A stretch of 64,000 nucleotides of DNA, taken from positions 22,390 through 86,389 of the IMG/VR virus record IMGVR_UViG_3300031992_000063. One strand, 5' to 3'. The notes below the pieces were generated by a model that was given only the letters and a program-made list of their open reading frames with translations, made no database searches and was not told the origin of the DNA. The stretch's first letter is position 1. The number at the start of each line of letters is the position of its first letter. The DNA comes from a virus. Taxonomy: Duplodnaviria; Heunggongvirae; Uroviricota; Caudoviricetes. The position numbers were made by a program, and so were the translations under genes. Positions 13,563 to 59,339 of the stretch are shown here, piece by piece.

Positions 13563-13844
13563 ATGAAGCAGAGAATTAATATTACAGTAGATGAAAATGA
13601 TGAAGTTGAGCGTCTATTTCTAACTTATAATTCATATATGAGTATGCTTCAATATCTTGCCAACACGGATATGGGCAGTACCCCCGTATATGATAAGAAA
13701 TGGAAAGAAGCATCAGACCTTTGGGTCCAATTGGATAAGAAAAAGCGCGAAATTGAACTTAAATACAAGCCCGCCGGAGACTGGGATAGTTATGAATTTG
13801 ATTTTGAAAATCAGCAGGTGGTGTTTGTAAAAGATGAGGCTTGA
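13563..13844 (+). CDS. Hypothetical protein (93 aa)
   Basis: ORF track entry. RBS GGAGA. Confidence 0.5.
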   Translation: MKQRINITVDENDEVERLFLTYNSYMSMLQYLANTDMGSTPVYDKKWKEASDLWVQLDKKKREIELKYKPAGDWDSYEFDFENQQVVFVKDEA

Positions 13845-15132
13845 TTTCTCCGATTAGATTATAAAGATGTATATGCGCGAAGACCCCGAAGCGACTTGTA
13901 GAAATATTACTTTTTAGGTAACGGATGATTGTTGCTTGAATTGTAGCTATTGCTATTAGACACACAAGGGTCATCGTATGATGAGTAAAGAAACCGCGAA
14001 AGAAATAGTAGATTTATTGTTTAAATTGTATGACGAAAACAATGAAGATACTGTCATAAATCATCATACATATGGTATTGTTTTGGACTTTATCGGCGGC
14101 GAACCATTTATGAATATTGATATCATATCTTTCGTTACTGAATACTTTATTCAGGAATGCGTTCGCCGCGACCATATTTGGCTTACTAATTTTCGTGTAT
14201 CTATGAGTTCCAATGGATTATTATATTTTGAGCCAAAAGTCTAGGAATACTTGCGTAAGTATAAAGACTTTGTTAGCTTAAATATAACAATTGATGGACC
14301 GAAAGAAATACATGATACTTGCCGCAAAGATTTTAGCGGCGAGGGTAGTTTTGATAGGTCAATAAAGGCATGGGAACATTGGTATCATGAGGTAAAGGTA
14401 AATATGCCAGATACAAAAGTAACGATTGCGCCCGAAAACCTATCCTAGCTTGAGTCAACATTTGATTTCTTTCTAGCCAATGGCTGTACTACTATTCACG
14501 CAAATCCAATCTTTGAGCATCCTTGGACTATTCGTGAGGCAAGTGAATATTATCATATATTAATTCGCCTTGCGGATAAACTATTAAAGGTTGAAGGCGC
14601 GGAAAGTTCCCTATTCTCCGACTTTAAAGGTAAGCCTTTGCCGCCAGAGGATACTAATAACTATTGCGGCGGCACTGCGGCAATGTTGGCTTTTGACCCA
14701 GATGGCAAAGCATATCCTTGCTTGCGCTATATGGCAAGTTCACTTTCACCAGAACGGGCGCCACTTGTAATTGGAGATACGCATGGAATATATAATACAC
14801 CAGAATACAAAGCAATATATGATGATATGAAGGCGGTAACGCGGCAATCGCAATCTTTACAAGAATGTTTAGATTGCCCTGTCGCATCCGGTTGTGCGTG
14901 GTGCTCGGCAGAAAACTACAATGAATTCGGCACCTATAACAAACGCTCTATTAACATATGTTGGATGCATCGCGCCGAAGCACTTGCGAATGTATATTAT
15001 TGGAATAAGTATTATAAATTACATAATATCAAAGATACATTCCCATTATATCTACCTAGAAATATAGCGGAAAAAATAATTACAAATCACGAATATAATG
15101 AGTTATATATATTATCACACTCTAATATTTGA
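13834..15132 (+). CDS. Radical SAM / SPASM-domain protein (anSME/peptide-maturase-like, about 432 aa) with 5 in-frame TAG
   Basis: ATG 13834 overlaps the upstream stop in an ATGA junction. Frame 1 is continuous through TAG at 13855, 13915, 13957, 14245 and 14446 to TGA at 15130-15132. CxxxCxxC = ...ITF(TAG)VTDDCCLNCSYCY(TAG)THKG. GGEP motif LDFIGGEPFMN. SPASM-like CGGTAAM...YPC and CLDCPVASGCAWCSAEN. Confidence 0.7.
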
Positions 15133-15157
15133 CTTTTGTAGAAATTTCTGCTATAAT
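15129..15157 (+). promoter_or_regulatory. Consensus promoter (TTGACT-17-TATAAT)
   Basis: Promoter family member. The rSAM gene's TGA stop lies inside AATATTTGACT. Confidence 0.55.
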
Positions 15158-15227
15158 ATATACAGAAAGTGGGTAAGGAACCAACTTTCTAAAAAATAAT
15201 TTTCATAACATAAGGAGGTTATGAGGT

Positions 15228-15566
15228 ATGAAGTATTATTCTGAAAAACTTCATAAGGTCTTTGACACCGTCGAAGCTTGTCAGCGTGCGGAGTTTGAAG
15301 AAAAGGAAAAGGAAAATCTTGAAAAAATCCAGAAGGAAAAGGCTCTAAGGGAAGCTAAGGAGCGCAAGGAAAAGGAAGCCGCAGAGCGTAAAGCTATGGC
15401 TGATAAGGTTGAGACTGCGCGCAAAGCTTATCTTGAAGCACAGAAAGCTTATAGGACTGAACTAGAAGCATTCTGCCAGAAGTATGGCACCTATCATTAT
15501 ACAGTGAGTGATGCCGATGAGGTTCCTTCTCTATTTGATGCTTTCAAGTATGCCTTTACTTGGTAA
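15228..15566 (+). CDS. Charged coiled-coil hypothetical protein (112 aa)
   Basis: ORF track entry. RBS AAGGAGG. Confidence 0.55.
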   Translation: MKYYSEKLHKVFDTVEACQRAEFEEKEKENLEKIQKEKALREAKERKEKEAAERKAMADKVETARKAYLEAQKAYRTELEAFCQKYGTYHYTVSDADEVPSLFDAFKYAFTW

Positions 15567-15605
15567 GTAAGGCTTAGGACTGAGCCTTATCAGTCCAACT
15601 TTCTT

Positions 15606-15694
15606 AGCCCCTTAGTTGAATGGCACAACAGCTGACTCTAAATCAGTAAGTGGGATTGACCCCGCGGGTGAGCGTTCGAGTCGCTCAGGGGCCG
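15606..15694 (+). tRNA. Candidate amber-suppressor tRNA, anticodon CUA (reads UAG); isotype undetermined
   Basis: Cloverleaf: AGCCCCT / TA / D stem GTTG-AATGGCA-CAAC / anticodon stem GCTGA, loop CTCTAAA (U33, CUA, A37), TCAGT / 22-nt variable region with GTGGG-ATTGAC-CCCGC helix / T arm GAGCG-TTCGAGT-CGCTC / AGGGGCC / G73. A1-C72 is unpaired. Confidence 0.6.
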
Positions 15695-15781
15695 CGTGGG
15701 AAGCGGACGGCTAGCTACCGAAACGAGATAAGGATGCCCTATCATCCAGCCAAATTTTATTTCTATAGGGAGGAATATAAA

Positions 15782-16450
15782 ATGACGGGATTTATCTATG
15801 TAATTACAAATGATGTAAATGGAAAGTAGTATGTTGGAAAAACTACTGATACTTTAGCCGGACGATTTAGTGACCATTGTAAAGATTCGGTTTTATCTAA
15901 ATGTAAAGGAAGACCTTTATATTATGCTATGAATAAATATGGGAAAGAACATTTTCATATTTCGTAGTTAGAAGAATGTGAACTAGATATTTTACCAGAA
16001 AGAGAATAGTTTTGGATAAAAGAATTAGATACTTATCATAATGGTTATAATGCCACTCTTGGAGGAGAAGGCAAGCAATATTATGATTATAATCTATTCG
16101 TTCAAGATTTTAATAATGGTATGAATATTAAAGAAATTGCTTAGAAATATCATTGTGGTACAGAAACAGTAAGCAAGGCTTTGCGAAAGGCGGGATTAGA
16201 TACTTTTCGCGGAAGTAAATATAATGCTCGTTCAAATAGGATTCCAATATTACAATTTTCGATGGATGATAATTTTTTACAGGAATTTGACTCAATTTGG
16301 ACAGCCGCTAAGTGGATAATGGAAAATCATTTTACCACCTCTACTAATCAAGGTCAAGTATAGAGTAATATTAGCGGAGCAGCGCGATAGATAGGATATA
16401 GAAAATCAGCATATGGATTTAAGTGGCGGCTAAAAGAAGAAGAAAATTAA
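15782..16450 (+). CDS. GIY-YIG homing endonuclease (I-TevI/Seg-like) with 6 in-frame TAG
   Basis: RBS GGGAGG followed by ATG 15782. GFIYVITNDVNGK(TAG)YVGKT...FHIS(TAG)LEECE...ERE(TAG)FWIKELDTYHNGYNATLGG, a C-terminal HTH (KEIA(TAG)KY...) and ...YGFKWRLKEEEN. Frame 2 is continuous to TAA at 16448-16450. Confidence 0.75.
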
Positions 16451-17927: not shown

Positions 17928-18001
17928 TGGGGTGTAGCCAAGTAGGCGAAGGCACGAGACTTTGACTCTCGGATGCGTAGGTTCGAGCCCTACCACCCCA
18001 G
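17928..18001 (+). tRNA. tRNA-Gln(TTG)
   Basis: U1-A72, G73, anticodon loop CTTTGAC, GTAGG-TTCGAGC-CCTAC. Confidence 0.65.
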
Positions 18002-18006
18002 CTTAT

Positions 18007-46572: not shown

Positions 46573-46576
46573 CAAG

Positions 46577-46825: not shown

Positions 46826-46826
46826 T

Positions 46827-47378: not shown

Positions 47379-47380
47379 AT

Positions 47381-47770: not shown

Positions 47771-47772
47771 AT

Positions 47773-48219: not shown

Positions 48220-48225
48220 TTTATT

Positions 48226-49518: not shown

Positions 49519-49792
49519 CTCTTTATTTGAAATTCAACGCGCATGGCCGCTTGGCACAGTAGTTGCTGAAGAGCCTATATTTCAGCGCTTCTATTGTGCT
49601 GATGAGATTACATTTAATAAAATTAAAGAATGGTTTAATGGCGATGAAGTAAAACAAACTTCTCCACATCATGTCACGGTTACACGATTATCAAAAAAAA
49701 CTATAGAAGGATATCTGTATAATGGCGAACAATGGTTTCCTATGACACAAAATGGTACGGAATGGTCTATTTATATACCAGAGGAGTTTTAA
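49511..49792 (+). CDS. Hypothetical protein (93 aa)
   Basis: ORF track entry. Confidence 0.5.
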   Translation: MYNSLFEIQRAWPLGTVVAEEPIFQRFYCADEITFNKIKEWFNGDEVKQTSPHHVTVTRLSKKTIEGYLYNGEQWFPMTQNGTEWSIYIPEEF

Positions 49793-49794
49793 TA

Positions 49795-50004
49795 ATGTGC
49801 GGATTTGGTAATAGAACCTGTGGAATATGTGCTAATGCCAATGGTTGCCTTGCTTCCATGAATGACGACTATTTCTGCCTCGCTTCTAAACAAGAAGTAC
49901 AAAAGCGTTTAGAAGAAGGCCACTATGCTGATGATACATTGATTATGAAACAATATTTAGAAATTCCGGATGATTATATTAAATCATGTATGGCATGGGC
50001 ATAA
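49795..50004 (+). CDS. Cys-rich hypothetical protein (69 aa)
   Basis: Internal ATG of ORF 49732..50004, placed right after the upstream stop. MCGFGNRTCGICANANGC. Confidence 0.4.
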   Translation: MCGFGNRTCGICANANGCLASMNDDYFCLASKQEVQKRLEEGHYADDTLIMKQYLEIPDDYIKSCMAWA

Positions 50005-50006
50005 AT

Positions 50007-50040
50007 AGTAGGAGCTCAAACAATTGAGCTCCTATTATTT
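50007..50040 (+). terminator. Rho-independent terminator
   Basis: AGGAGCTC-AAACAATT-GAGCTCCT followed by ATTATTTG. Confidence 0.55.
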
Positions 50041-50066
50041 GACTTTTTCTAAAATTATGTTATAAT
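50038..50066 (+). promoter_or_regulatory. Consensus promoter (TTGACT-17-TGtTATAAT)
   Basis: Promoter family member. Confidence 0.55.
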
Positions 50067-50090
50067 AATTATAGAAAAAAGGAAAGGAGA

Positions 50091-50426
50091 ATGAAAATGG
50101 GTTTGGATATTTATATTTTCAAAGCTCGTACCAAGAAAGCATTTGAGGCCGATAATTGGTATAATTCCGATGCAGTACAAGAAGTATATTATGCTAGAAA
50201 ATTCTGGGACCTTCTAAGCGCAGCGTCATTCATTGATATAAATAATGATTGCGGCGAATATCTTGAACTTTCGCGCGAAAATGTTGAAGAACTGATTGAA
50301 ATTGCTACCCATAATGAAGATTATTTTGGTGGCTTTGAGACAGTACCTCGCTTATGCGAGATTCTGCGAGATTTTGAAGAAACCGAAGAAAACGGCTATC
50401 ATTATTATATGGAGTTTGATTACTAA
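50091..50426 (+). CDS. Hypothetical protein (111 aa)
   Basis: ORF track entry. RBS AAGGAGA. Confidence 0.5.
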   Translation: MKMGLDIYIFKARTKKAFEADNWYNSDAVQEVYYARKFWDLLSAASFIDINNDCGEYLELSRENVEELIEIATHNEDYFGGFETVPRLCEILRDFEETEENGYHYYMEFDY

Positions 50427-50905
50427 TGACATTTAAAGATTGTGCTAAATATTATCCCCTTGATTATACTTATGTTGGAGATTATAGTTTAAACGAAACT
50501 TATACGAAGGACCAGCTTGATTCAGATACGATTGCTGAGGCGCTTGAATGGAATGATGAGAGCGCAATCCCGTTTATCGTATATGATGCTGCCACACAAA
50601 AATTTGAGAATTGGTATTATGCTTTTTGGTGTGTAAAAGGTTATCTTAATGAAACCTATGAAATGGATGGATTTTATCCAGCAACGAATAGTGAGTCTTT
50701 TGGATGGGAAAAAGTAGACCCAAATAGCATTATTTACGCACCAGACGATGAACTCGCAAATGAATTGGGCTTCGGGCCGGATATGGGAAAAAATGATGAT
50801 TTTCGGCGCGAACAGGTTGCGTATGGATTTGATGTAGAAGCTTATACAAACGGAACCATCTTTACTACTCGTGAAAAACTAGAAAAATTTTTAAGTGAAG
50901 AATAA
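50426..50905 (+). CDS. Hypothetical acidic protein (159 aa)
   Basis: ORF track entry. Confidence 0.5.
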   Translation: MTFKDCAKYYPLDYTYVGDYSLNETYTKDQLDSDTIAEALEWNDESAIPFIVYDAATQKFENWYYAFWCVKGYLNETYEMDGFYPATNSESFGWEKVDPNSIIYAPDDELANELGFGPDMGKNDDFRREQVAYGFDVEAYTNGTIFTTREKLEKFLSEE

Positions 50906-50977
50906 TTTTATATTACCTATTCTATAAGAGTAGGTAATTTACTATACCCAAGTTTATGCCAATGAGGCAGGTAGAAA

Positions 50978-51199
50978 ATGACAAGAGATATTATAAATGA
51001 ATTTGAGCTATTTATTTATCAGCAAGGATGGACGCAAACTGACGCGGCAGAGAAAATCGGGTGTTCACAAGAACATTTAAGTAGGATTTTTCGTAGATTA
51101 AGAAATCCATCAGCAAAATTACTAGATAGAATGGAAATATTACTAGAGGAGCAACGATATGGCGAATTACGCAAATCAAAAAAGGATGGATATTCTTAA
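50978..51199 (+). CDS. Helix-turn-helix transcriptional regulator (73 aa)
   Basis: ...WTQTDAAEKIGCSQEHLSRIFRR... (XRE-like). Confidence 0.55.
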   Translation: MTRDIINEFELFIYQQGWTQTDAAEKIGCSQEHLSRIFRRLRNPSAKLLDRMEILLEEQRYGELRKSKKDGYS

Positions 51200-51521
51200 T
51201 GCGGATTTGTTAGAGCATAAGAAAAATACAGAAACGGACGGGTATTATTATCCTATGGATTATAAATATATAGATGCCGCCGCGTCAGAATTGAATGGCA
51301 ATGCCTTTAAGATTTGGCTTTATTTACTCCGATGGCGAAATAAAGGATATGTATTTTTCTCTCCCGCAGCAATTGAACATGCTATGGGTATCAAAAAGTC
51401 TAGTGTCAGCGACTCTGTCGCAGAACTTAAAAGAAAAGGAGTTATAATAGAAGATGCTGAGAGCCCGAATAAATTATATTTTAATGCCGTGCCTGATACA
51501 TGGCGCCAAAAATATGATTAA
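51159..51521 (+). CDS. Replication initiator-like winged-helix protein (120 aa)
   Basis: Winged-helix-type segment. Placed immediately upstream of the iteron array. Confidence 0.4.
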   Translation: MANYANQKRMDILNADLLEHKKNTETDGYYYPMDYKYIDAAASELNGNAFKIWLYLLRWRNKGYVFFSPAAIEHAMGIKKSSVSDSVAELKRKGVIIEDAESPNKLYFNAVPDTWRQKYD

Positions 51522-51524
51522 CGA

Positions 51525-51665
51525 TTTTCGTACCATTCATTCCGAAAATCGTACCATTCACTTTTATTGATACGAAAATCGTACCATTCGCGTCCGAAAA
51601 CCGTACCAATCAGTACGAAAACCGTTCCATTCGTCCGAAAATCGTACCAATGGTCCGAAAAACCT
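51525..51665 (+). repeat. Iteron array: about 6 direct repeats of about 19-21 nt, (C/A)CGAAAA(T/C)CGTACCA(T/A)T(C/G)
   Basis: ccgaaaatcgtaccattca / acgaaaatcgtaccattcg / ccgaaaaccgtaccaatca / acgaaaaccgttccattcg / ccgaaaatcgtaccaatgg / ccgaaaaacc. Confidence 0.6.
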
Positions 51666-51740
51666 GGGAGTAATATTAATATATAATTAATATATAAATA
51701 ATAAAAATAATAATATTTAAATAATGATATGGCGCTGCGC
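51666..51740 (+). other. AT-rich DNA-unwinding element adjacent to the iterons; together a candidate origin of replication
   Basis: taatattaatatataattaatatataaataataaaaataataatatttaaataatgatat. Confidence 0.5.
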
Positions 51741-51891
51741 GCAGAGGAGAACAATATGTGCCAAATTATAACAACTGGTTTTTGCCCTTACGCAGATAAT
51801 GAAGAAGGAATAACATGCGATGATTGTCCGTGGTCTGAGCCTGATAAGGAAACCGAATTTTTTAAAAAATATTTTGAGGAGCTAGAAAAAT

Positions 51892-52185
51892 ATGCTAGAA
51901 AAAATTAAAGCATGGCTTATTCATAAATTAGGTGGATATACATATAAATATACAATTGAGCCAAAGGTAATACATTCAACTTATCCAATTAAATTGTGTA
52001 AAACAATAATTACATATAGAGATGATTATCCTTTAACAGAAATTGAACTGGCGCACCAAGCCGCCATACAGATTGCGGATGCTATTATACGGGACCGCCT
52101 CTACGAATATGAAGAAGAAACTGATATGCTCCGTGAAGGAATGCATGTACGCCACTATACAGTTTATATCGCAGCTAAACATTGA
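51892..52185 (+). CDS. Hypothetical protein (97 aa)
   Basis: ORF track entry. A 49-aa Cys-rich ORF, 51757..51906, precedes it. Confidence 0.45.
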   Translation: MLEKIKAWLIHKLGGYTYKYTIEPKVIHSTYPIKLCKTIITYRDDYPLTEIELAHQAAIQIADAIIRDRLYEYEEETDMLREGMHVRHYTVYIAAKH

Positions 52186-52210
52186 CTTTTAATTTAAATT
52201 GAAGTATAAT
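52183..52210 (+). promoter_or_regulatory. Consensus promoter (TTGACT-16-TATAAT)
   Basis: Promoter family member. Confidence 0.55.
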
Positions 52211-52240
52211 ATAAAAAAGAGGAAAGAGGATAAAGTAGAA

Positions 52241-52516
52241 ATGATTGATCGTGAGAAAGTTATTAAAGGGTTGGAGTCTTGTGCAAAATGGATGGGAGAA
52301 AATGATGATAATGCTTGTAATAGTTGCCCTTATCATCATAGTCACTTCAGTTATGATGACAATAATTGTATTGCCATAGTTAATAATGATGCTATTACCC
52401 TACTGAAAGAACAGAAAACCTCGCGAAGCAATATTTCCAAAAAGCAGATGGAAGGTTGGTTGAAAGATAGACAGTATAGCGAATGGGCTAATAGAGCACA
52501 TGAGATGGGTGTATGA
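52241..52516 (+). CDS. Cys/His-rich hypothetical protein (about 91 aa)
   Basis: ATG 52241 downstream of the promoter. The ORF track start at 52199 precedes the transcription start. Confidence 0.45.
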   Translation: MIDREKVIKGLESCAKWMGENDDNACNSCPYHHSHFSYDDNNCIAIVNNDAITLLKEQKTSRSNISKKQMEGWLKDRQYSEWANRAHEMGV

Positions 52517-52525
52517 GGAAGTGAA

Positions 52526-52834
52526 ATGGGAATGAGTGCAACAGAGAATGTTATCAATGATTTGAACACGGCAAAATTCATATTGGGCAATACGCAGATA
52601 ACACTTACTCGAGAACTACGCATCAGAATTGGGCAGGCTATAAATAGCGCCATTGATTTGCTGGAAGAGCAGAAACCTGTTGAGCCAATAGATATTATAG
52701 ATGAAAAATATCCTGTAGGAGATAGCAATAGATATAAAGGATATCGTTGCGGTAAATGCCAAGAAATTATTTCATGGGATGCTAATTACTGCCCCTATTG
52801 CGGGAGAAAGGTGAAGTGGGAATGCGCGAACTAA
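52526..52834 (+). CDS. Zinc-ribbon protein (102 aa)
   Basis: CGKCQ...CPYCGRK. Confidence 0.45.
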   Translation: MGMSATENVINDLNTAKFILGNTQITLTRELRIRIGQAINSAIDLLEEQKPVEPIDIIDEKYPVGDSNRYKGYRCGKCQEIISWDANYCPYCGRKVKWECAN

Positions 52835-53121
52835 TTTATCGAGATGACTGCGACCTCAATGCGCCATCACTGGATAGAGATGGTATGATACGCGACCTAA
52901 TGAATGAATATTCTTTAAATTGGGACGAATGCGATGAAGAAAAAGTCTTTGAGTTCGCAAAAGAACTTATGGAGAAAGCACAAAATATAATTGATACTGC
53001 ACCAACAATCGCTACTGATGAAGTTATGGCATATAAATGCCCTGAATGTAGAGTGGTAAGTATCTTATATAATCCAGAGTATGAATCATACTGCCCGAAT
53101 TGCGACATAAGGAGAAGATAA
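52798..53121 (+). CDS. Zinc-ribbon protein (107 aa)
   Basis: CPECR...CPNCD. Confidence 0.45.
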   Translation: MREKGEVGMRELIYRDDCDLNAPSLDRDGMIRDLMNEYSLNWDECDEEKVFEFAKELMEKAQNIIDTAPTIATDEVMAYKCPECRVVSILYNPEYESYCPNCDIRRR

Positions 53122-53459
53122 TGGAAATATTAGTTGATTATGGTCCTGTTACGGAAGCAGGAATATTAGGAATATTAATAATAGCTATAGCTACCTTTAC
53201 ATTTATGATTGGTCTTGCGGGAATGTTTTTTGAACACGAAAAAGTTGGAATTATTTGTTTATCAATATTTATAATACTTGTAGTAGTTGGTATTACTTTT
53301 AAAACGAATCTATATGAAATTCCTACAGGTAAATATAAATACATAGTAGAAATTACAGATGAAAATAAATACAAAGAATTAGTACAAAAAGATTATACAT
53401 TCGTACGCGTGTATGATAATAGAGAGATTTATACAATTGTAGGAGATGAACTTAAATGA
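53100..53459 (+). CDS. Two-TM membrane protein (119 aa)
   Basis: ORF track entry. Hydrophobic N-terminal half. Confidence 0.5.
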   Translation: MRHKEKIMEILVDYGPVTEAGILGILIIAIATFTFMIGLAGMFFEHEKVGIICLSIFIILVVVGITFKTNLYEIPTGKYKYIVEITDENKYKELVQKDYTFVRVYDNREIYTIVGDELK

Positions 53460-53746
53460 AAGTAATTGCTAGACCACTTGGAACTGGTAAAACACGAGAA
53501 CTAATGGAAGCCGCCATTGAAGCCGATGGTATGATTCTAACAACCAATAAGCGAGCTTTGGCCGCAAAAGCGCAGGCATACGGCTTTGACTCTTTAGACA
53601 TTATTGACCTAGCAGATGTACTTTATGGTAATTTTGACCCAGAAAAACCTCTATTTATTCATAAACTAGAAGATGTAGCAGAAGAATATATTTCAAAGGA
53701 CTTTAACCTAAAACTTGCTGGCTTTAGCATTAGAATGGGAGAATAA
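53456..53746 (+). CDS. Hypothetical protein (96 aa)
   Basis: ORF track entry. Confidence 0.5.
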   Translation: MKVIARPLGTGKTRELMEAAIEADGMILTTNKRALAAKAQAYGFDSLDIIDLADVLYGNFDPEKPLFIHKLEDVAEEYISKDFNLKLAGFSIRMGE

Positions 53747-53747
53747 T

Positions 53748-54116
53748 ATGTACGATTATAGAAGAGCAATAACTAACGATATTAAAGAATATATTAATGA
53801 TAATCAGATGTTCCAAGAACCAGATGAAACATATGATGACTACATTCAGCGGCTTGAAGAAGACCTCTGGGATGTAGATGAGATTACTGGTAATGGTCCG
53901 TTCTACTATGCTTCCGAAGAAGAATGCGAAGATTATGTAGGACATGGACTTAGATACCTTGTTGAAGTGCTAACAGATTGGGATTTAGAACTGGCAAAGA
54001 ATGAGAATTTTCATGGTGCGCCCGCGCGCTATCTAGACTGTTTAATTAGATGTTATCTTCTTTATGAATGTATTGAAAAGGCGGTGAATGAACTTGGATA
54101 CACCTTTGAAATATAA
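53748..54116 (+). CDS. Hypothetical acidic protein (about 122 aa)
   Basis: ATG with RBS GGGAGAATAAT. Internal start of ORF 53715. Confidence 0.45.
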   Translation: MYDYRRAITNDIKEYINDNQMFQEPDETYDDYIQRLEEDLWDVDEITGNGPFYYASEEECEDYVGHGLRYLVEVLTDWDLELAKNENFHGAPARYLDCLIRCYLLYECIEKAVNELGYTFEI

Positions 54117-54264
54117 TTTAGAACTTGAAAAAGACAAAAGATGTTGGCTTTATAAATATGGATGCCCATGTCGTACCGCAGTATGCTGGGGATTACCTGA
54201 CGACGGATGCCCAGTATATGAGTGGTTTAAGCAAGTCATTGAATATCAGAAGCAATTAAGTAAT

Positions 54265-54292
54265 TGACTTTTAATAAAATTATGATATAATA
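54265..54292 (+). promoter_or_regulatory. Consensus promoter (TTGACT-16-TGaTATAAT)
   Basis: Promoter family member. Confidence 0.55.
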
Positions 54293-54323
54293 TATGTATA
54301 AGAAAAAGGAAAGGAGTGAGTAA

Positions 54324-56189
54324 ATGTCCCAGTCATATGATATTAACTCTATTCAAAGTTTAGACTTCCGCGAAGGTGTCCGTACTAGAATTCAGATGTA
54401 TCTTGGAAGCGATGATAACGAAGGAACTTATCAGGCATTAAAAGAGATTATCAATAACAGTACTGATGAAGCGCTTGCGGGATATGGCAAAAAGATAATA
54501 ATTACTTTAGAGCCCGCCACTAACGGTATCAGCGTTAGAGATTATGGGCGCGGAGTTCCATTCGGTATTAGAGAAGATGGAGAGAACGTACTTGTCTCTA
54601 TCTTTACTAAATCACATACTGGCGGCAAGTTCTCACATGATGCTTATAAGAATGCTTCAGGATTAAATGGAATTGGCGGTTCGTGCGTTTGTCTTTCCTC
54701 TACACGATTTGAAGTTACTAGTATTCGTGATGGAGCAAAGGCAACAGCAACCTTCAATAAAGGGATTTTGGATAGTTATGAAGAAAGAAAAGTGAGTGGT
54801 CTAAAAAATGGCACTTATATTTTCTTCATTCCAGACCCTGAAGTATTCTCAAATGGTCCAATTGGTTATGATTTTAACCGAATCTGTCAGGATATTAAAG
54901 ATATTTCATATCTTTATCCAGGCATTGAATTTATAGTATCAAATGAAAATGATGAGAAAACTTATTGCGCGAAAAATGGTATTATTGATTTTGTCGCTGA
55001 GAATGTAAAAAAGCCGCTTCAAAAAAGTATTATTACAGGTTCGGCGACAGATGGTACCGACAGTTTGGAGATTGCTTTTCAATGGGGCACGAAGCATGAA
55101 ACCAGTTATGTTTTTGTCAACGGTCTTAGATGTCCCGAGGGTGGTAGTCCAATTACTGGTGCGAGAAGCGCAATCACCAAGACATTCAATACACTTGCGA
55201 ATGCCTCCTTTGATGGTGAATATATTCGTAAGAATCTATTTTATGTAATTAATTGTAAAGTAGAAAATCCATCTTTTGCGAATCAGACCAAGTCTAAAAT
55301 CAATAACGCCTCATTACGAACCTTAGCTTCAACCGCATTCTCCAACGCGCTTAAAGATATGGCAACTCAGCATTCAAATGAATTTAATGCGATTGTAGAA
55401 ATGCTTCGTAAAATTGAGAAGGCGGAAGCCGCCGCGACAAAAGCAAGAGATGCCATTCTTAATATGGAGAAAAAGGAAACCGAACAGCGTAAGCGTAAGG
55501 TTACTTCTTCAGATAAATATAAGGATTGTGAAAAGCACTGTCAAGATTCAATGCTAATTATTTGTGAAGGTAATTCCGCATTAGGTGGCCTGATGCCCGC
55601 GCGTGATGTTAAGACAGAAGCATTATATGCTGTGCGCGGTAAGGTTAAAAACTTGATGAAGCATCCGCTAGATGAATGCCTGGAAAATCAGGAAGTCTCT
55701 GATATCATTATGGCGCTTGGATGCGGCATTCAGGAAAGGTATAGTAGTAAGAAACTTAATTATGGAAAAGTCGCGATTGCGGTTGACGCAGACGTTGACG
55801 GCTATAATATTATGTGCCTTATTACAACTCTCTTCTATGTCCTAATGCCGAAATTCATTGAAGAAGGAAGACTTGGTTGGCTGCGGGCGCCCCTTTACAG
55901 ATTGAGTAAAGGAAAGCAGCATGTATATGCGTATGATGAGGATGAGCTTACAGAATTAAGAAAAACTCATGCTGGATGGGAGCAATCAAGATACAAAGGA
56001 TTGGGGGAGATGCGCGCTGAGGATATGGAGGAGTCTATGCTTCATCCGAAAAATAGGCGGCTGGATATTCTTACAATTGGCGATGCTGAAGCTGCGGCAG
56101 ATTGTTTACAAATGTTGATGGGCACGGAAGTTGAAGGGCGCCGAGACTTCTTATTTGAGAACGTGGATTTTAGTATTTTGAATAATTAA
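54324..56189 (+). CDS. Type II DNA topoisomerase, ATPase plus TOPRIM subunit (GyrB/ParE-like; T4 gp39/gp60-like), 621 aa
   Basis: GHKL ...INNSTDEALAGYGKKIIITLEP...VRDYGRGVP... and TOPRIM ...MLIICEGNSALGG... Confidence 0.75.
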   Translation: MSQSYDINSIQSLDFREGVRTRIQMYLGSDDNEGTYQALKEIINNSTDEALAGYGKKIIITLEPATNGISVRDYGRGVPFGIREDGENVLVSIFTKSHTGGKFSHDAYKNASGLNGIGGSCVCLSSTRFEVTSIRDGAKATATFNKGILDSYEERKVSGLKNGTYIFFIPDPEVFSNGPIGYDFNRICQDIKDISYLYPGIEFIVSNENDEKTYCAKNGIIDFVAENVKKPLQKSIITGSATDGTDSLEIAFQWGTKHETSYVFVNGLRCPEGGSPITGARSAITKTFNTLANASFDGEYIRKNLFYVINCKVENPSFANQTKSKINNASLRTLASTAFSNALKDMATQHSNEFNAIVEMLRKIEKAEAAATKARDAILNMEKKETEQRKRKVTSSDKYKDCEKHCQDSMLIICEGNSALGGLMPARDVKTEALYAVRGKVKNLMKHPLDECLENQEVSDIIMALGCGIQERYSSKKLNYGKVAIAVDADVDGYNIMCLITTLFYVLMPKFIEEGRLGWLRAPLYRLSKGKQHVYAYDEDELTELRKTHAGWEQSRYKGLGEMRAEDMEESMLHPKNRRLDILTIGDAEAAADCLQMLMGTEVEGRRDFLFENVDFSILNN

Positions 56190-56208
56190 ATTTTTATGGA
56201 GATAAAAT

Positions 56209-56724
56209 ATGAAAACTGGACTTTGCGGATTATATAGATTTAAAAATAAGCAAGGTGAAATTATTTATATTGGTAAGGCTGATGATATTCATAAACGATT
56301 AAAAGGGCATAAACATCTTGAACCAGAACAATATCAAGAGGTATCAACTATTGAATATGCTATAGTTAATAATAAAGCAGATAGAGATATTATAGAGACT
56401 ATGTTAATTTCACAAATTAATCCCAAATATAATACAACACAAAAGTATACAGAACAAGCAAGTTTAATAATAGATGGAGAGATAATGCTTTTATGGCAAA
56501 AAGTTGATCCCAAAGAATATAATTTTCAAGCAAAGAAAAAAGAACATAGAGGCACAGGAGTACAAGGTCGTCCACGTATAGAAGTACCACCATTATTTTA
56601 CGAGTTATATCCTAAATGGAAAAATGGTGAAATAACAGCCACTGCTATGGCAAAAGAAGTTGGTTTAACTCACTGTACATTTTATCGTCGTGTAAAAGAA
56701 TATGAAGCTACTTTAAATAAGTAA
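56209..56724 (+). CDS. GIY-YIG nuclease with C-terminal HTH (171 aa), AT-rich, no TAG
   Basis: GLYRFKNKQGEIIYIGKADDIHKRLKGH...ETMLISQINPKYNT. C-terminal ...ITATAMAKEVGLTHCTFYRRVKEY. Confidence 0.65.
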   Translation: MKTGLCGLYRFKNKQGEIIYIGKADDIHKRLKGHKHLEPEQYQEVSTIEYAIVNNKADRDIIETMLISQINPKYNTTQKYTEQASLIIDGEIMLLWQKVDPKEYNFQAKKKEHRGTGVQGRPRIEVPPLFYELYPKWKNGEITATAMAKEVGLTHCTFYRRVKEYEATLNK

Positions 56725-56758
56725 GAAGTTCCCTTATTTAAGAATATGAATTTTAGTA

Positions 56759-57928
56759 TTGAGAATAATTAAGATGGATAATAAATATTACGTTTACAAA
56801 TATTATATTAATGACCAATTATTATATGTAGGACGAACTAATAACTTTATAGAACGATTTAAACAGCATTTGCGGGAAAATTCAGAATATAATAAAGTAA
56901 CTAGAATTGATATAGCCACTTTTGATTTAGATGGCGATATGATGTTATATGAAAAATATTATATTACGAAATTTCATCCGCCTTTAAATAAGAAGGATAT
57001 GCAATTTTCTAGTCCATCTTTTAAATTACCTGAACCTGAATGGATAAGTTATACTAGAGAAGAATTTGATAATATTTCCTCTCAATATAAAAAAAATAAC
57101 TATGGAAAACTCGTAGAAAACAAAATTAAATTATCAAAAATTATTCTCCCAGATAATACAGTTAAAATTCCTGGTAATATCCCGTTATCTTGGTTTAAAC
57201 AGTTTGATATGAATACACAAGTATTTAATTATAATGAAAAATATAGTATTTATTTTACAAGTGCCTATGATACTGCTACACCAAAAGAACAGAAAAAGAT
57301 GTATAAATGGGATAAAAATGAGATAATTAATTACTGGTGTTTAATAGCAGAAAATAAATTAGATAAAATTCCTTATATTAAAGATTATCCATATGATGCT
57401 CCAACATTAAATTTAACAATTAAAAAAAATAATTCTGACATAATGTATTGTTCTTTAGATTGGTTCAGAATCACTTTGGATAAAAATCAAGGATTTTATT
57501 ATTTTGGGCCATATTTTAAAAATAAAATTATTAGTGAAGATGGTATATTTAATATTGAAAAAGAAATTCAAGAGTATGAAATAATAGAACTATTTCATAC
57601 ACCAACAGTATCAAAAGTTTTAAAAGATGCATTGGGTAATGATGAGATTGAAGTAAAAAAAATTCTTTCTTGGAATATATTATATGTATCGTATAAAAAC
57701 AATATAATAGATACTGCCATTATTAAAATAAATTTCTTATCTACTGAAGATGATGAAACAATATTTGAAAATAATTTATTAATTATTAATCAAGAAGAGA
57801 TTTCAGATTCCGATCATATGATAGCACAAAATTATGCTCCTTGTGGTGTTTTAAGAAAATATAAAAATACTTTTATTCGTGATAAATATTTTGAAAAACT
57901 ATTAATTGACAATTCTCTAAATTTATGA
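56759..57928 (+). CDS. GIY-YIG domain protein (389 aa), very AT-rich
   Basis: YVYKYYINDQLLYVGRTNNFIERFKQH...EKYYITKFHPPLNKKD. Confidence 0.6.
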   Translation: MRIIKMDNKYYVYKYYINDQLLYVGRTNNFIERFKQHLRENSEYNKVTRIDIATFDLDGDMMLYEKYYITKFHPPLNKKDMQFSSPSFKLPEPEWISYTREEFDNISSQYKKNNYGKLVENKIKLSKIILPDNTVKIPGNIPLSWFKQFDMNTQVFNYNEKYSIYFTSAYDTATPKEQKKMYKWDKNEIINYWCLIAENKLDKIPYIKDYPYDAPTLNLTIKKNNSDIMYCSLDWFRITLDKNQGFYYFGPYFKNKIISEDGIFNIEKEIQEYEIIELFHTPTVSKVLKDALGNDEIEVKKILSWNILYVSYKNNIIDTAIIKINFLSTEDDETIFENNLLIINQEEISDSDHMIAQNYAPCGVLRKYKNTFIRDKYFEKLLIDNSLNL

Positions 57929-57934
57929 TATAAT
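57906..57934 (+). promoter_or_regulatory. Consensus promoter (TTGACA-17-TGaTATAAT)
   Basis: Promoter family member. Followed by the ATAGAAAGTGAGAAAG leader. Confidence 0.55.
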
Positions 57935-57964
57935 AAATATAGAAAGTGAGAAAGAATAATATTT

Positions 57965-58180
57965 ATGGATAAAAAAATCATAAATTATAATGTACTAGTT
58001 CGTAATGGTATGGGATGTATGAATAGACATATTCTCGAACAAAATGCTGAATATACTATTGCATATTGTACTTTACATAATAAAGAAATTAGTCAACATG
58101 GTTATGATTGTATGTCGTGTGAATATAATCCGTATTATAAAAATAAAAATATACTTAAAGGAGGCGACAGAGATGACTGA
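57965..58180 (+). CDS. Cys-rich zinc-finger protein (71 aa)
   Basis: CMNRH...CTLH...CMSCEY. Confidence 0.45.
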   Translation: MDKKIINYNVLVRNGMGCMNRHILEQNAEYTIAYCTLHNKEISQHGYDCMSCEYNPYYKNKNILKGGDRDD

Positions 58181-59339
58181 CAAAGCACAGCAAGCGTTAG
58201 AGAGTATTAAGAAAAATTTTTCAAATGCCTCTTTTACATTAAAAGATTTAAATGAGAAAAGCCAAGAACAATATTTTAGTGCTTCTTTAACTTCTTTAGT
58301 AAAAGAACATTATTTACTAAAACTTAATACTAAACCAGTAAAATATCAATTATCGAATATAAATATTGATGTTAGTGATAAATTTCTAGAAAAAGAAAAA
58401 GAAAAAGAAAAAGAAAAAGAAAAAGAAAAAGAAAAAGAAAAGGAAAAAGAAAAAGAAAAACCTATAAATAAATATCCAATTAATATATAGCTATTACATG
58501 GAGATAGTAGAATAGAATTACAACAAATTGCAAACAATTCAATAGATTGTGTTATAACAGATCCTCCATATTTTATTGATGGTATGGGTGATAACTGGCA
58601 AGTAGATAAATTAAAAGAAAAAGCTAGTAAGGCAAATGTAGTACAGTCAATGCCAGTTGGAATGAAATTTGATCCGAAACAAGGTATTGAATTACAGAAA
58701 TTTATGGAAGTAATTTCAAAAGAAATATATCGTATTTTAAAACCTGGCGGATTCTATATTAGTTTTTCTCAAGCACGATTATATCATAGAATGGCAATGG
58801 CAGTAGAAAATTGCGGATTTGAAATAAGGGATATGCTTATTTGGAAACGAGAAGGACAAGCAAAAGCATTTTCACAAAATCATTTTGTACATAAAATGAA
58901 TATTTCAGAAGAAGAAAAAGAAAAAATAATAACTTCTCTAGGAGATAGAAAAACACCGCAATTAAAGCCTCAAATTGAACCAATGGTACTAGCTCAAAAG
59001 CCAAAAGAAGGTACATTTGTACAAAATTGGTTAAAATATAATATTGGATTAATAGATACTACTCAATCTCTTGATGGAATGTTTCCTGGGAATGTAATGG
59101 AAGTACCAAAAGAAAAAAATGCAGTTGCTCATTTTACAGTAAAACCAGTTAAATTAATAGAGCATTTAATTAAAATCTTTTCTCCAGAGGGCGCGATAAT
59201 TTGTGATCCATTTTTAGGAAGTGGAACTACTGGAATAGCTTGCATACATACTAATCGTAATTTTATTGGAATTGAATTAAATGATGAATATTTTTCATTA
59301 GCAAAAGAAAGGATCGAAAAAGAGAATGGAACTAATTGA
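58173..59339 (+). CDS. DNA methyltransferase (DPPY-type N6-A/N4-C) fused through a sense TAG to an N-terminal domain carrying an (EK)13 repeat; about 388 aa
   Basis: RBS GGAGG followed by ATG 58173 ...(EK)n...PINI(TAG)LLHGDSRIELQQIANNSIDCVITDPPYF... (MTase N-terminal signature and motif IV) ...ICDPFLGSGTTGIAC (motif I). ORF 58584..59339 is in the same frame. No independent start codon lies between the TAG and the DPPY motif. Confidence 0.6.
58389..58458 (+). repeat. Hexanucleotide tandem repeat (GAAAAA/AAAGAA)x12 encoding (EK)n
   Basis: gaaaaagaaaaagaaaaa... inside the methyltransferase fusion gene. Confidence 0.7.

What the first reader, a model, noticed from the sequence alone, without database searches (positions are those of the whole stretch)
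13834..59339. Two codon regimes in one genome: TAG-free early genes versus a discrete set of TAG-containing genes
Most of the 26-64 kb replication and nucleotide-metabolism genes contain zero TAG codons. These include topoisomerase II subunits of 621 and 689 aa, DNA ligase, RNase H, RNA ligase, ClpP, the permease and the vWA protein. TAG is concentrated in a specific set of genes. These are the tail fibres, the rSAM/SPASM gene (5), two GIY-YIG endonucleases (6 and 5), PhoH2 (4), the transglutaminase-like gene (1), the secreted 22430 gene (1), 26864..27310 (1), several small zinc-ribbon genes, the methyltransferase fusion (1) and the AT-rich 38468..40426 ORF (about 20, including a TAG-TAG doublet). 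A third GIY-YIG gene at 56209 has none. This bimodality fits TAG-dependent, suppressor-gated expression of late or accessory genes, and also flags which accessory genes were tuned to the recoded state.
Basis: seen in the sequence. Interest (0 to 1): 0.7.

Follow-up and report, generated by a model that had tools for sequence, protein, structure and literature searches.

The report
TAG-as-glutamine phage with TAG-free early genes
This window comes from an uncultured rumen-type phage that reads the stop codon TAG as glutamine but keeps TAG out of its early, host-promoter-driven genes, a real and statistically strong pattern that has already been described for other recoded phages.

Summary
With TAG read as sense, coding density rises from 0.67 to 0.85. 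TAG aligns with Gln codons in orthologs, and no gene ends in TAG. TAG use is far from Poisson: 46 of 68 ORFs have none against 25 expected (G-test p = 9e-17). TAG/(TAG+CAG) per gene is bimodal, 0 in 27 genes and 0.67-1.0 in 9. In TAG-bearing genes TAG replaces CAG almost one for one. The gene-level state is conserved: topoisomerase II and ligase have 0 TAG in about 30-36 orthologs each.

Independent support comes from 24 near-consensus sigma-70 promoters on the + strand (about 2 expected). Twenty-three lie between 13.5 and 62.6 kb, where the TAG-free genes are. TAG-bearing genes in that region share operons or such promoters with TAG-free genes, so any delay must act at translation.

This is the published model for alternatively coded phages (Borges et al.), including a recoded homing endonuclease in an early region. 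I file it as a new member of a known kind. No expression timing could be tested.

Side leads: the amber suppressor tRNA has a long extra arm with a Gln-like acceptor end. It sits in a conserved promoter, cow-rumen-4 RNA, ORF, hairpin, tRNA cassette. Family-wide, TAG is specifically enriched in the first 50 codons.

The parts
706..9004 (+). Tail-fibre or baseplate-like late genes with dense in-frame TAG: 706-3675 (11 TAG), 3691-4026 (3), 3984-6419 (9), 6587-9004 (13). CAG is almost absent in them (0, 1, 2 and 1).
   Evidence: Pfam Laminin_G_3 and Gp10_C.
9021..13506 (+). Further structural-module genes with few TAG: 9021-9551 (1), 9753-10715 (2), 10923-12845 (2 TAG against 11 CAG, an intermediate gene), 13096-13506 (1, CBM_5_12).
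13503..15132 (+). Sigma-70-type promoter 13503-13531, then the TAG-free 93-aa ORF 13563-13844, then the radical SAM gene 13834-15132 with 5 TAG.
15129..15157 (+). Near-consensus sigma-70 promoter (TTGACT-17-TGcTATAAT) heading the suppressor cassette.
   Evidence: Conserved 473-489 nt upstream of the suppressor tRNA in 8 relatives (1140 nt in L080).
15162..15224 (+). cow-rumen-4 RNA motif (RF02948), the 5' leader of the cassette. It forms two hairpins with Shine-Dalgarno-like loops. The second hairpin holds the Shine-Dalgarno sequence of the next ORF.
   Evidence: Present upstream of the suppressor in 7 of 8 relatives scanned.
15228..15566 (+). TAG-free Lys/Glu-rich 112-aa ORF between the leader RNA and the suppressor tRNA. 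Function unknown.
   Evidence: 13 orthologs, all with 0 TAG.
15577..15596 (+). Conserved hairpin GGACTGAGCC..TCAGTCC with a weak T tail, immediately 5' of the suppressor tRNA. It may be an attenuator or a processing site.
15606..15695 (+). Amber suppressor tRNA, anticodon CUA, 90 nt, with a roughly 22-nt extra arm (5-bp stem). It has an A1.C72 mismatch, G2:C71, G10 and discriminator G73. It is the first tRNA of the array.
15782..16450 (+). GIY-YIG/NUMOD homing-endonuclease-like gene with 6 in-frame TAG. The likely start is 15782.
17928..18002 (+). Phage tRNA-Gln(UUG), which reads CAA. There is no phage tRNA-Gln(CUG) in the window.
26400..63918 (+). Early-type block. 40 of 49 ORFs of at least 80 aa have no TAG, and 15 of the 24 near-consensus sigma-70 promoters lie here. 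TAG-free examples: 30639-32132, 34716-36092 (RNA ligase), 40996-41511 (RNase H), 42577-43761 (DNA ligase), 43791-44396 (ClpP), 48226-49518 (permease), 54324-56189 and 60095-62164 (topoisomerase II).
38405..40426 (+). Most TAG-dense gene: 17-18 TAG in about 652-673 codons, GC 0.28. It starts 15 nt downstream of a TAG-free phosphoesterase gene that sits behind promoter 37485. Family restricted, function unknown, fast-evolving.
44393..45631 (+). PIN-PhoH (PhoH2) gene with 4 TAG. It overlaps the TAG-free ClpP gene by 4 nt.
45635..46572 (+). Sigma-70 promoter 45635-45663 followed by the GIY-YIG/NUMOD1 gene 45742-46572 with 5 TAG. The gene is present in some relatives and absent in others.
47369..47770 (+). 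Small Cys-rich gene with 2 TAG. The TAG at codon 14 is kept as TAG in 19 of 23 orthologs. Other small TAG genes: 41821-42018 (2) and 33911-34159 (2-3).
56209..60039 (+). Low-GC (0.23-0.30) variable island between the two topoisomerase II subunit genes. It holds two TAG-free GIY-YIG genes (56209-56724, 56759-57928), the N6/N4 methyltransferase fusion 58044-59339 (one TAG at 58488, between an (EK)n linker and the catalytic domain), and the ORF 59281-60039.

Best explanation
The window belongs to a roughly 165-190 kb uncultured phage lineage that uses genetic code 15, in which TAG means Gln.

TAG is never a terminator here. It is decoded by a phage-encoded amber suppressor tRNA (15606-15695). Genes that must be translated by the unmodified host machinery right after infection are kept completely free of TAG by purifying selection. 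These are the replication, nucleotide-metabolism and RNA-repair genes, and they sit behind host-type sigma-70 promoters.

In the late structural genes and a discrete set of accessory genes, TAG is used as an ordinary Gln codon and takes the place of CAG. The accessory set is two GIY-YIG endonucleases, PIN-PhoH, a radical SAM enzyme, the 38.4-kb ORF and several small proteins. Several of these genes are co-transcribed with TAG-free genes or carry their own sigma-70-type promoter. Full-length protein from them can therefore appear only once the suppressor tRNA has accumulated, which amounts to a delay at the level of translation.

Shown here: the recoding, the Gln identity, the non-random and conserved gene-level split, the promoter association and the operon context.

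Inferred, not shown: the temporal order, and whether the delay is itself selected.
For: Recoding:
- Code-15 ORFs restore long conserved genes.
- Stops of the 68 ORFs are TAA 50, TGA 18 and TAG 0.

TAG = Gln:
- Window TAG aligns to Q 170 times, to TAG 90 times, and to the next residue (K) 24 times.
- Ortholog TAG falls opposite window Gln at 19 per 1000, against 3 per 1000 or less for every other residue.
- At codon level, at 40-70% identity, window TAG aligns to CAA 102, TAG 41 and CAG 14.
- PhoH codon 214 is Q in 38 of 40 orthologs and in PDB 3b85.
- Gln-type codons make up 3.5% of codons in TAG genes and 3.1% in TAG-free genes.

Split:
- G-test p = 9e-17; 46 zero-TAG genes against 25 expected.
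- TAG-free genes hold 162 CAG, 127 CAA and 0 TAG. About 90-100 TAG would be expected if TAG:CAG followed the Leu TTR:CTR or TTG:CTG ratio of the same genes.
- Genes with at least 2 TAG hold 77 TAG, 23 CAG and 95 CAA.
- Composition does not explain it. Off-frame TAG is 0.035 per codon in TAG-free genes and 0.048 in TAG genes, and the GC 0.23-0.30 island is TAG-poor.

Conservation:
- 0 TAG in 29-36 orthologs each of topoisomerase II A and B and ligase.
- TAG is present in most orthologs of PhoH, rSAM, the 47369 gene and the 38.4-kb ORF.
- Across 328 ORFs from 101 related loci, TAG/(TAG+CAG) is U-shaped.

Early class:
- 24 near-consensus sigma-70 promoters on the + strand against about 2 expected. 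All are intergenic, and 23 of them lie between 13.5 and 62.6 kb.
- Family-wide, 76 of 232 TAG-free ORFs have one upstream, against 11 of 93 TAG-rich ORFs (Fisher p = 8.7e-5).

Suppressor: it lies behind such a promoter in 9 family members.

Gate-like placement: the TAG share of Gln codons is 0.42 in codons 1-25, 0.37 in codons 26-50 and about 0.24 beyond codon 100. Five control codon pairs show no gradient.

Published model.
Against: - No expression or proteomic data exist for this lineage, so early, late and delay are inferences.
- The suppressor sits behind a strong host-type promoter and may be made from the first minutes. That would make any delay short.
- One tail-fibre gene (6587-9004, 13 TAG) also has a perfect sigma-70 promoter.
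- In TAG genes, TAG/(TAG+CAG) is 0.77, close to the analogous synonymous ratio TTR/(TTR+CTR) of 0.83. TAG sites are not conserved as TAG more than CAG or CAA sites are conserved. So selection for TAG is not required to explain its abundance.
- PhoH orthologs range from 0 to 8 TAG and ClpP orthologs from 0 to 3, so the class boundary is soft.
- 10923-12845 lies in the structural block but has early-like codon use.
- The suppressor's extra arm plus G73 would also suit seryl-tRNA synthetase.
- The host, its genetic code and the fate of its RF1 are unknown.
Confidence: 0.75

Rival explanations
1. Passive constraint only. TAG is a fully synonymous Gln codon once the suppressor is present. It is purged from genes needed before that point and drifts to mutational equilibrium everywhere else. 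The delay of TAG genes is a by-product with no regulatory value.
For: - TAG/(TAG+CAG) is 0.77 in TAG genes, close to TTR/(TTR+CTR) at 0.83.
- Window TAG sites are kept as TAG in only 26% of Gln-type aligned codons at 40-70% identity. CAG sites are kept at 28%.
- The TAG status of PhoH and ClpP varies among relatives.
- TAG genes share an AT-rich synonymous codon usage in general.
Against: - TAG is specifically enriched in the first 50 codons. TTG/CTG, TTA/CTA, CAA/CAG, AAA/AAG and GAA/GAG show no such gradient.
- In genes with 1-2 TAG, the first TAG lies in the first fifth of the ORF in 49 of 103 cases.
- The TAG at codon 14 of 47369-47770 is retained in 19 of 23 orthologs.
- TAG-rich genes sit behind early-type promoters, where a block at translation would matter.
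Confidence: 0.35
2. TAG is read as serine, or ambiguously, because the only suppressor in the window is a long-extra-arm tRNA with discriminator G73. Those are the main recognition features for bacterial seryl-tRNA synthetase.
For: An extra arm of about 22 nt with a 5-bp stem, plus G73, is conserved in 9 family members.
Against: - TAG aligns with Gln codons far above Ser. The rate opposite S is 1.9 per 1000 against 19 per 1000 opposite Q.
- Strictly conserved Gln sites in PhoH and rSAM are TAG in the window.
- Total Gln-type codon content is equal in the two gene classes only if TAG counts as Gln.
- Position 1:72 is always weak (U:A, A:U or A.C), as in tRNA-Gln, not the G1:C72 of bacterial tRNA-Ser.
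Confidence: 0.05
3. Mosaic origin. TAG-free genes were recently acquired from standard-code hosts or phages, and TAG genes are the long-resident part of the genome.
For: - The low-GC island 56.2-60.0 kb is variable cargo and nearly TAG-free.
- The permease, ClpP and SPFH genes look host-like.
Against: - Core replication genes are TAG-free in all 29-36 orthologs, down to about 45-55% identity. The state is therefore old and maintained.
- TAG-free genes also never end in TAG.
- The island in a near-identical strain carries a GIY-YIG gene with 4-5 TAG.
Confidence: 0.05
4. Artefact. The TAG-containing ORFs are pseudogenes or chance open frames, and TAG is an ordinary stop.
For: Some short ORFs in the tRNA array are probably spurious. 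An example is 21802-22203, with 6 TAG and an overlap with an abiF RNA hit.
Against: - Frames of 266-989 codons are free of TAA and TGA, carry Pfam domains on both sides of TAG codons, and have conserved orthologs.
- Coding density in 1-15.2 kb is 0.54 under code 11 and 0.90 under code 15.
- A CUA-anticodon tRNA is present.
Confidence: 0.01

Closest known systems
Alternatively coded (code 15, TAG to Gln) gut phages: crAss-like, Lak, and the Garnet, Amethyst, Jade, Sapphire and Agate clades (Borges et al., bioRxiv 10.1101/2021.08.26.457843)
   Same: - In-frame TAG read as Gln, and a phage suppressor tRNA(CUA).
- Structural genes recoded while replication genes stay compatible with the standard code.
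- Only part of the genes carry in-frame stops. About 32% of ORFs do here, against 26% in Sapphire and up to 71% in Garnet.
- A strongly recoded homing endonuclease inside an early region was reported for Agate phages.
- The proposed role is the same: delaying translation of late genes.
- Genome size of about 165-190 kb and a cattle-type source resemble the larger clades.
   Different: - No membership in a named clade was established, because no terminase lies in the window.
- The nearest deposited phage proteins are about 30% identical.
- The suppressor here has a long extra arm.
- Promoter-based evidence for the early class, the one-for-one replacement of CAG by TAG, and the TAG-specific 5' bias were worked out here. 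I did not find them in the text I read of that paper.
Phassvirus group (phAss-1), human-gut code-15 phages (PMC10607447)
   Same: - TAG to Gln, with 28% of ORFs carrying TAG.
- tRNA-Sup-CTA genes are present and no dedicated aminoacyl-tRNA synthetase is.
- The TAG pattern differs among orthologs of close relatives.
   Different: - A different lineage, about 136 kb, from the human gut.
- It has 2-3 suppressor tRNAs, which the authors' tRNAscan-SE analysis assigned to Gln.
- No relation to this window was detected.
T4-like phages with tRNA arrays whose late genes match the phage tRNA set
   Same: - A large tRNA array (at least 19 tRNAs) lies between the late and early modules.
- Late and TAG-bearing genes use a distinct, more AT-rich synonymous codon set.
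- The phage supplies tRNA-Gln(UUG) and tRNA(CUA) but not tRNA-Gln(CUG) in this window.
- An RNA ligase plus kinase/phosphatase set for tRNA repair is present, as are free-standing GIY-YIG endonucleases between core genes.
   Different: T4 uses the standard code. Here one of the late codons is a former stop, so the effect on early translation is all-or-none rather than graded.
Mischarging mutants of the E. coli su+3 tyrosine amber suppressor that insert glutamine (classical genetics, recalled from my own knowledge, not checked here)
   Same: A long-extra-arm tRNA with a CUA anticodon becomes a glutamine acceptor when the 1:72 pair is weakened or position 73 is changed. The phage suppressor shows a weak or mismatched 1:72 pair and G73.
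   Different: Those are laboratory mutants of tRNA-Tyr. The ancestry of the phage tRNA is unresolved and its charging is untested.

Membership tests
Code-15 (TAG to Gln) alternatively coded phage | Conserved phage genes are interrupted by in-frame TAG and restored when TAG is read as sense. | tested here: met
   Coding density rises from 0.667 to 0.853, and from 0.535 to 0.902 in the structural block. Pfam domains span TAG codons.
Code-15 (TAG to Gln) alternatively coded phage | TAG positions align with glutamine in homologs. | tested here: met
   relatives, at codon level; PDB PhoH.
Code-15 (TAG to Gln) alternatively coded phage | A phage-encoded suppressor tRNA with anticodon CUA. | tested here: met
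   15606-15695 (ARAGORN; Rfam tRNA 51.7 bits). Conserved in 9 related loci.
Code-15 (TAG to Gln) alternatively coded phage | TAG is not used as a terminator. | tested here: met
   Of 68 ORFs of at least 80 aa, none ends at or just after a TAG. Stops are TAA 50 and TGA 18.
Code-15 (TAG to Gln) alternatively coded phage | Recoded codons are concentrated in structural or late genes and depleted in early or replication genes. | tested here: met
   Promoter association.
Code-15 (TAG to Gln) alternatively coded phage | The host uses the standard code, so the code changes during infection. | not testable with these tools
   The host is unknown. Extended -10 sigma-70 promoters and strong GGAGG ribosome-binding sites suggest a Bacillota-type host. 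This is inference only.
Code-15 (TAG to Gln) alternatively coded phage | TAG-bearing proteins appear later than TAG-free ones. | not testable with these tools
   No transcriptome, ribosome-profiling or proteome data are available.
tRNA-Gln identity of the suppressor (E. coli GlnRS and GatCAB rules, from my own knowledge) | A weak or unpaired 1:72, G2:C71, discriminator G73 and G10. | tested here: met
   The window tRNA has A1.C72, G2:C71, G10 and G73. Across 8 homologs, 1:72 is U:A (5), A:U (1) or A.C (2), while G2, G10 and G73 are invariant.
tRNA-Gln identity of the suppressor (E. coli GlnRS and GatCAB rules, from my own knowledge) | G3:C70. | tested here: not met
   The window tRNA has C3:G70. 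G3:C70 occurs in L078, L101 and L086 only.
tRNA-Gln identity of the suppressor (E. coli GlnRS and GatCAB rules, from my own knowledge) | Class I architecture with a short variable loop. | tested here: not met
   A variable region of about 20-22 nt forms a 4-5 bp helix. Three different stem sequences are seen among homologs.
tRNA-Gln identity of the suppressor (E. coli GlnRS and GatCAB rules, from my own knowledge) | Closest overall sequence relative is tRNA-Gln. | tested here: inconclusive
   Global identity to co-resident tRNAs is 0.72-0.75 for several isoacceptors. Gln ranks first only in L078.
Bacterial tRNA-Ser (class II) | A long extra arm plus G73. | tested here: met
Bacterial tRNA-Ser (class II) | G1:C72, and serine inserted at the cognate codon. 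| tested here: not met
   1:72 is never G:C. TAG sites behave as Gln, not Ser.
Free-standing GIY-YIG homing endonucleases | A GIY-YIG catalytic domain with a NUMOD or HTH DNA-binding region, and presence or absence varying between core genes of relatives. | tested here: met
   Pfam. The gap after PhoH is 100-2373 bp and the gap between the topoisomerase genes is 65-3905 bp among relatives.

The most novel reading that the evidence does not exclude
The code switch itself may be a regulated device.

The amber suppressor is an atypical tRNA with a long extra arm and a Gln-type acceptor end. It sits in a cassette conserved across the family. The order is host-type promoter, cow-rumen-4 RNA (an orphan Rfam motif whose hairpins display Shine-Dalgarno-like loops), a small TAG-free ORF, a conserved hairpin, and then tRNA(CUA).

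If the leader RNA or the hairpin sets when and how much suppressor is made, this would give cow-rumen-4 a function. It would also identify the timer of the code change. The TAG-specific enrichment in the first 50 codons of TAG genes would then be selected gate codons rather than drift.
Probability: 0.2. Interest if true: 0.6.

Novelty: new member of a known kind. Interest (0 to 1): 0.3.

Why it matters
The finding adds a well-resolved example of a TAG-recoded phage. It comes from a rumen-type lineage with no close deposited relative, and the evidence is unusually clean.

- The early class can be defined independently of TAG through 24 near-consensus host-type promoters.
- TAG replaces CAG one for one in the other class.
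- The gene-level state is conserved across about 100 related loci.

Practically, such contigs must be annotated with table 15. Otherwise the structural module, homing endonucleases, PhoH2 and the radical SAM gene are fragmented.

The finding does not change the picture of how recoded phages work. The parts that could do so are side observations that need experiments: the extra-arm suppressor, its conserved cassette with cow-rumen-4 RNA, and the 5' bias of TAG.

Tried and rejected
- AlphaFold2 on the family of the 38.4-kb TAG-dense ORF (5 sequences) gave mean pLDDT 40.6. No fold search was run. Pfam gave only a sub-threshold DUF7399 hit and PHROGs gave nothing. The homolog search found only 6 family-restricted proteins without names.
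- A search for deposited relatives found none. The suppressor cassette has no blastn match, and topoisomerase II A has at most about 30% identity in GenBank phages.
- A discriminative k-mer search for a late-promoter motif upstream of TAG-rich ORFs gave only T-rich words such as CCTTATT (10 against 0). These may be terminator tails, and I did not pursue them.
- Site-level conservation of TAG was tested and not found in general.
- Ancestry of the suppressor from global tRNA similarity was inconclusive.
- PDB alignments of the radical SAM protein were uninformative about the TAG residue.
- I checked whether the methyltransferase TAG at 58488 could be a true stop followed by a restart. There is no in-frame ATG, GTG or TTG start directly after it, so read-through is the simpler reading.
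- I checked whether AT-richness alone produces TAG. This is rejected by the TAG-poor island with GC 0.23-0.30.

Full report
**What the window is.** All convincing genes lie on the + strand and GC is 37%. The layout is:
- a tail-fibre/baseplate block at 0.7-13.5 kb (Laminin_G_3, Gp10_C, CBM_5_12);
- a radical SAM gene;
- an array of at least 19 tRNAs at 15.6-26.4 kb;
- a long block of replication, nucleotide-metabolism and RNA-repair genes at 26-64 kb. These include both topoisomerase II subunits, DNA ligase, RNase H, RNA ligase, kinase/phosphatases, dNMP kinase, ClpP, PIN-PhoH, a permease and an SPFH protein.

IMG/VR holds about 100 related loci from contigs of up to 165-190 kb. GenBank phages hold nothing closer than about 30% protein identity.

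**Recoding is real and TAG means Gln.** Calling ORFs with TAA/TGA as the only stops raises coding density from 0.667 to 0.853. In the structural block it rises from 0.535 to 0.902.

I aligned window proteins to code-15 translations of the related loci.
- Window TAG lies opposite Q 170 times, opposite TAG 90 times, and opposite the next residue (K) 24 times.
- Reciprocally, ortholog TAG falls on window Gln at 19 per 1000, against 3 per 1000 or less for every other residue.

At codon level, in orthologs of 40-70% identity, window TAG aligns with CAA 102, TAG 41 and CAG 14. This evidence does not depend on how anyone translated the relatives. PhoH codon 214 is Q in 38 of 40 orthologs and in the solved PhoH 3b85. 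Gln-type codons make up 3.5% of codons in TAG genes and 3.1% in TAG-free genes, but only if TAG counts as Gln. No ORF of at least 80 aa ends in TAG; stops are TAA 50 and TGA 18.

**The observation.** Small corrections are listed in the observation check. The 68 ORFs of at least 80 aa that do not overlap tRNAs hold 93 TAG among 569 Gln-type codons. Homogeneity is rejected: G = 210.7, df 67, p = 9e-17, against a simulation maximum of 112. There are 46 TAG-free genes where 25 are expected under a binomial or a length-Poisson model (simulation maximum 39).

The sharper statistic is TAG/(TAG+CAG). It is 0 in 27 genes, 0.67-1.0 in 9 genes, and intermediate in only 4. TAG-free genes use 162 CAG and 127 CAA. 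Genes with at least 2 TAG use 77 TAG, 23 CAG and 95 CAA. So TAG takes the place of CAG and the CAA share stays the same.

Composition is not the cause. Off-frame TAG is common in both classes, at 0.035 and 0.048 per codon. The most AT-rich genes, in the 56.2-60.0 kb island with GC 0.23-0.30, are TAG-poor.

TAG-bearing genes embedded in the early block also share the AT-richer synonymous codon usage of the tail-fibre genes, even with Gln codons excluded (Mann-Whitney p = 0.0045). The phrase 'two codon regimes' therefore applies beyond TAG.

**Conservation.** Topoisomerase II A and B and DNA ligase have 0 TAG in each of 29-36 orthologs, down to about 45-55% identity. The rSAM gene, the 47369 gene and the 38.4-kb ORF family carry TAG in most relatives. 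PhoH (0-8) and ClpP (0-3) vary. Across 844 unique ORFs from the 101 loci, TAG/(TAG+CAG) is U-shaped: 159 ORFs fall below 0.1 and 66 above 0.8, out of 328 informative ORFs. Mosaic origin by recent transfer therefore does not explain the TAG-free class.

**Independent evidence for an early class.** A scan for near-consensus sigma-70 promoters required at least 11 of 12 matches to TTGACA-N16-18-TATAAT. It finds 24 on the + strand, 5 on the - strand and about 2 in shuffles. The 24 + strand sites are all intergenic, mostly 25-35 nt upstream of a start codon, and often carry an extended -10 TG. Twenty-three of the 24 lie between 13.5 and 62.6 kb. Family-wide, such a promoter lies upstream of 76 of 232 TAG-free ORFs and 11 of 93 TAG-rich ORFs (Fisher p = 8.7e-5).

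The TAG-bearing genes within this region are not separate transcription units of another type.
- PhoH overlaps ClpP by 4 nt.
- The 38.4-kb ORF starts 15 nt after a TAG-free phosphoesterase gene that sits behind promoter 37485.
- 47369 and 41821 overlap their upstream neighbours.
- GIY-YIG 45742, the methyltransferase 58044, the rSAM operon and one tail-fibre gene (6587) each have a near-consensus promoter of their own.

If these genes are expressed later than their neighbours, the block must be at translation. This is an inference from anatomy, not a measurement.

**The suppressor.** The only CUA-anticodon tRNA in the window (15606-15695) is 90 nt long, with an extra arm of about 22 nt. Homologs of 86-94 nt occur in nine related loci and are always the first tRNA after the structural block. 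The cloverleaf helices covary: 13 of 16 pairs show compensatory changes. The extra arm uses at least three different stem sequences.

The 1:72 position is always weak (U:A, A:U or A.C), and G2, G10 and G73 are invariant. These are the acceptor-end features of tRNA-Gln, not of tRNA-Ser, whose G1:C72 is absent. That fits the Gln reading of TAG, but G3:C70 and the class I shape are not met, and charging is untested. Another sub-lineage (L061, L064) has a canonical 75-nt tRNA(CUA) instead.

The suppressor lies in a conserved cassette:
- a sigma-70 promoter (15129-15157; 473-489 nt upstream of the tRNA in the window and seven of eight relatives, 1140 nt in L080);
- cow-rumen-4 RNA (15162-15224);
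- a TAG-free 112-aa ORF;
- a conserved hairpin (15577-15596);
- the tRNA itself.

**Gating or passive constraint?** Two results favour a passive reading.
- In TAG genes, TAG/(TAG+CAG) is 0.77, close to the analogous first-position synonymous ratio for Leu, TTR/(TTR+CTR) at 0.83. By the same yardstick, TAG-free genes would be expected to hold 90-100 TAG, and they hold 0.
- TAG sites turn over among TAG, CAG and CAA like synonymous sites.

One result favours selected gate codons. It comes from 234 family ORFs with Shine-Dalgarno-supported starts. There the TAG share of Gln codons is 0.42 in codons 1-25, 0.37 in codons 26-50 and about 0.24 beyond codon 100. Five control codon pairs are flat over the same range. 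In genes with 1-2 TAG, the first TAG lies in the first fifth of the ORF in 49 of 103 cases. Pseudo-replication among homologs and residual start errors are not excluded.

**Relation to what is known.** Borges et al. (bioRxiv 10.1101/2021.08.26.457843) report the following:
- TAG to Gln and TGA to Trp recoding in many gut phage clades, including clades from cattle;
- suppressor tRNAs;
- alternative code in structural and lysis genes, with replication genes compatible with the standard code;
- 26-71% of genes carrying in-frame stops;
- a strongly recoded intron homing endonuclease in an early gene;

The Phassvirus paper reports variable TAG status among orthologs. I rate it as a new member of a known kind, of modest interest. 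The suppressor cassette and the extra-arm tRNA are the leads worth an experiment.

Noticed in passing
window 15129-15695; also L078, L079, L080, L082, L083, L086, L101: The orphan Rfam motif cow-rumen-4 (RF02948) starts at the predicted transcript start of a near-consensus sigma-70 promoter. Its second hairpin contains the Shine-Dalgarno sequence of a TAG-free 112-aa ORF. It lies about 380 nt upstream of the amber suppressor tRNA, with the same order and spacing in six of the seven relatives listed (about 1050 nt in L080). A conserved hairpin, GGACTGAGCC..TCAGTCC, directly precedes the tRNA.
   Followed up: partly
window 15606-15695 and homologs in 9 loci: The amber suppressor tRNA has a long extra arm like a class II tRNA, but a Gln-like acceptor end (weak 1:72, G2, G73). 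A different sub-lineage (L061:2357-2431, L064:5327-5401) has a canonical 75-nt tRNA(CUA) with G1.U72, A73 and an encoded CCA.
   Followed up: partly
window 19865-20028: A tRNA gene with an insertion of about 91-95 nt in the anticodon loop (Rfam tRNA, 51.6 bits). ARAGORN missed it. It sits behind the sigma-70 promoter 19817-19844. The spliced anticodon could be GUU or GGU. The nature of the insertion is unknown; it is too short for a typical group I intron.
   Followed up: partly
window 56209-60039; L001:7088-10000: The space between the two topoisomerase II subunit genes is a hot spot for low-GC cargo and ranges from 65 to 3905 bp among relatives. Here it holds two TAG-free GIY-YIG genes, a methyltransferase fusion and a Cys-rich ORF. 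A strain whose flanks are 95-98% identical at the DNA level carries different cargo, including a GIY-YIG gene with 4-5 TAG and a different methyltransferase.
   Followed up: partly
window 58044-59339: The N6/N4 DNA methyltransferase is fused to an N-terminal domain of about 100 aa through an (EK)n repeat. The single TAG (58488) sits exactly between the linker and the catalytic domain, and no in-frame start codon follows it. Without suppression only the N-terminal domain would be made.
   Followed up: partly
window 13503-15132: A TAG-free 93-aa ORF (13563-13844) overlaps the start of the radical SAM gene (5 TAG), behind a sigma-70-type promoter. This could be a precursor peptide plus maturase pair.
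   Followed up: no
window 29461-30553 and 34716-36092: An AAA_33 kinase, a metallophosphatase and an RNA ligase form a T4-like tRNA-repair gene set next to a large tRNA array. All are TAG-free.
   Followed up: no
window 22098-22134 and 21802-22203: An abiF RNA motif hit (37.9 bits, just above threshold) lies inside a GC-rich stretch whose code-15 ORF has 6 TAG and is probably not coding.
   Followed up: no
L101:17903-18200; L078:16791-16928: A relative encodes a tmRNA (tag peptide DEYNFALAA) inside its tRNA array. Another relative carries a cow-rumen-3 RNA in its array.
   Followed up: no
window 38405-40426 and the syntenic genes in L035, L036, L049: A conserved genomic slot holds a gene of about 650 aa that is fast-evolving (20-23% identity between sub-lineages), mostly helical and family-restricted. 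Its TAG count ranges from 0 to 25 among relatives. Function unknown.
   Followed up: partly
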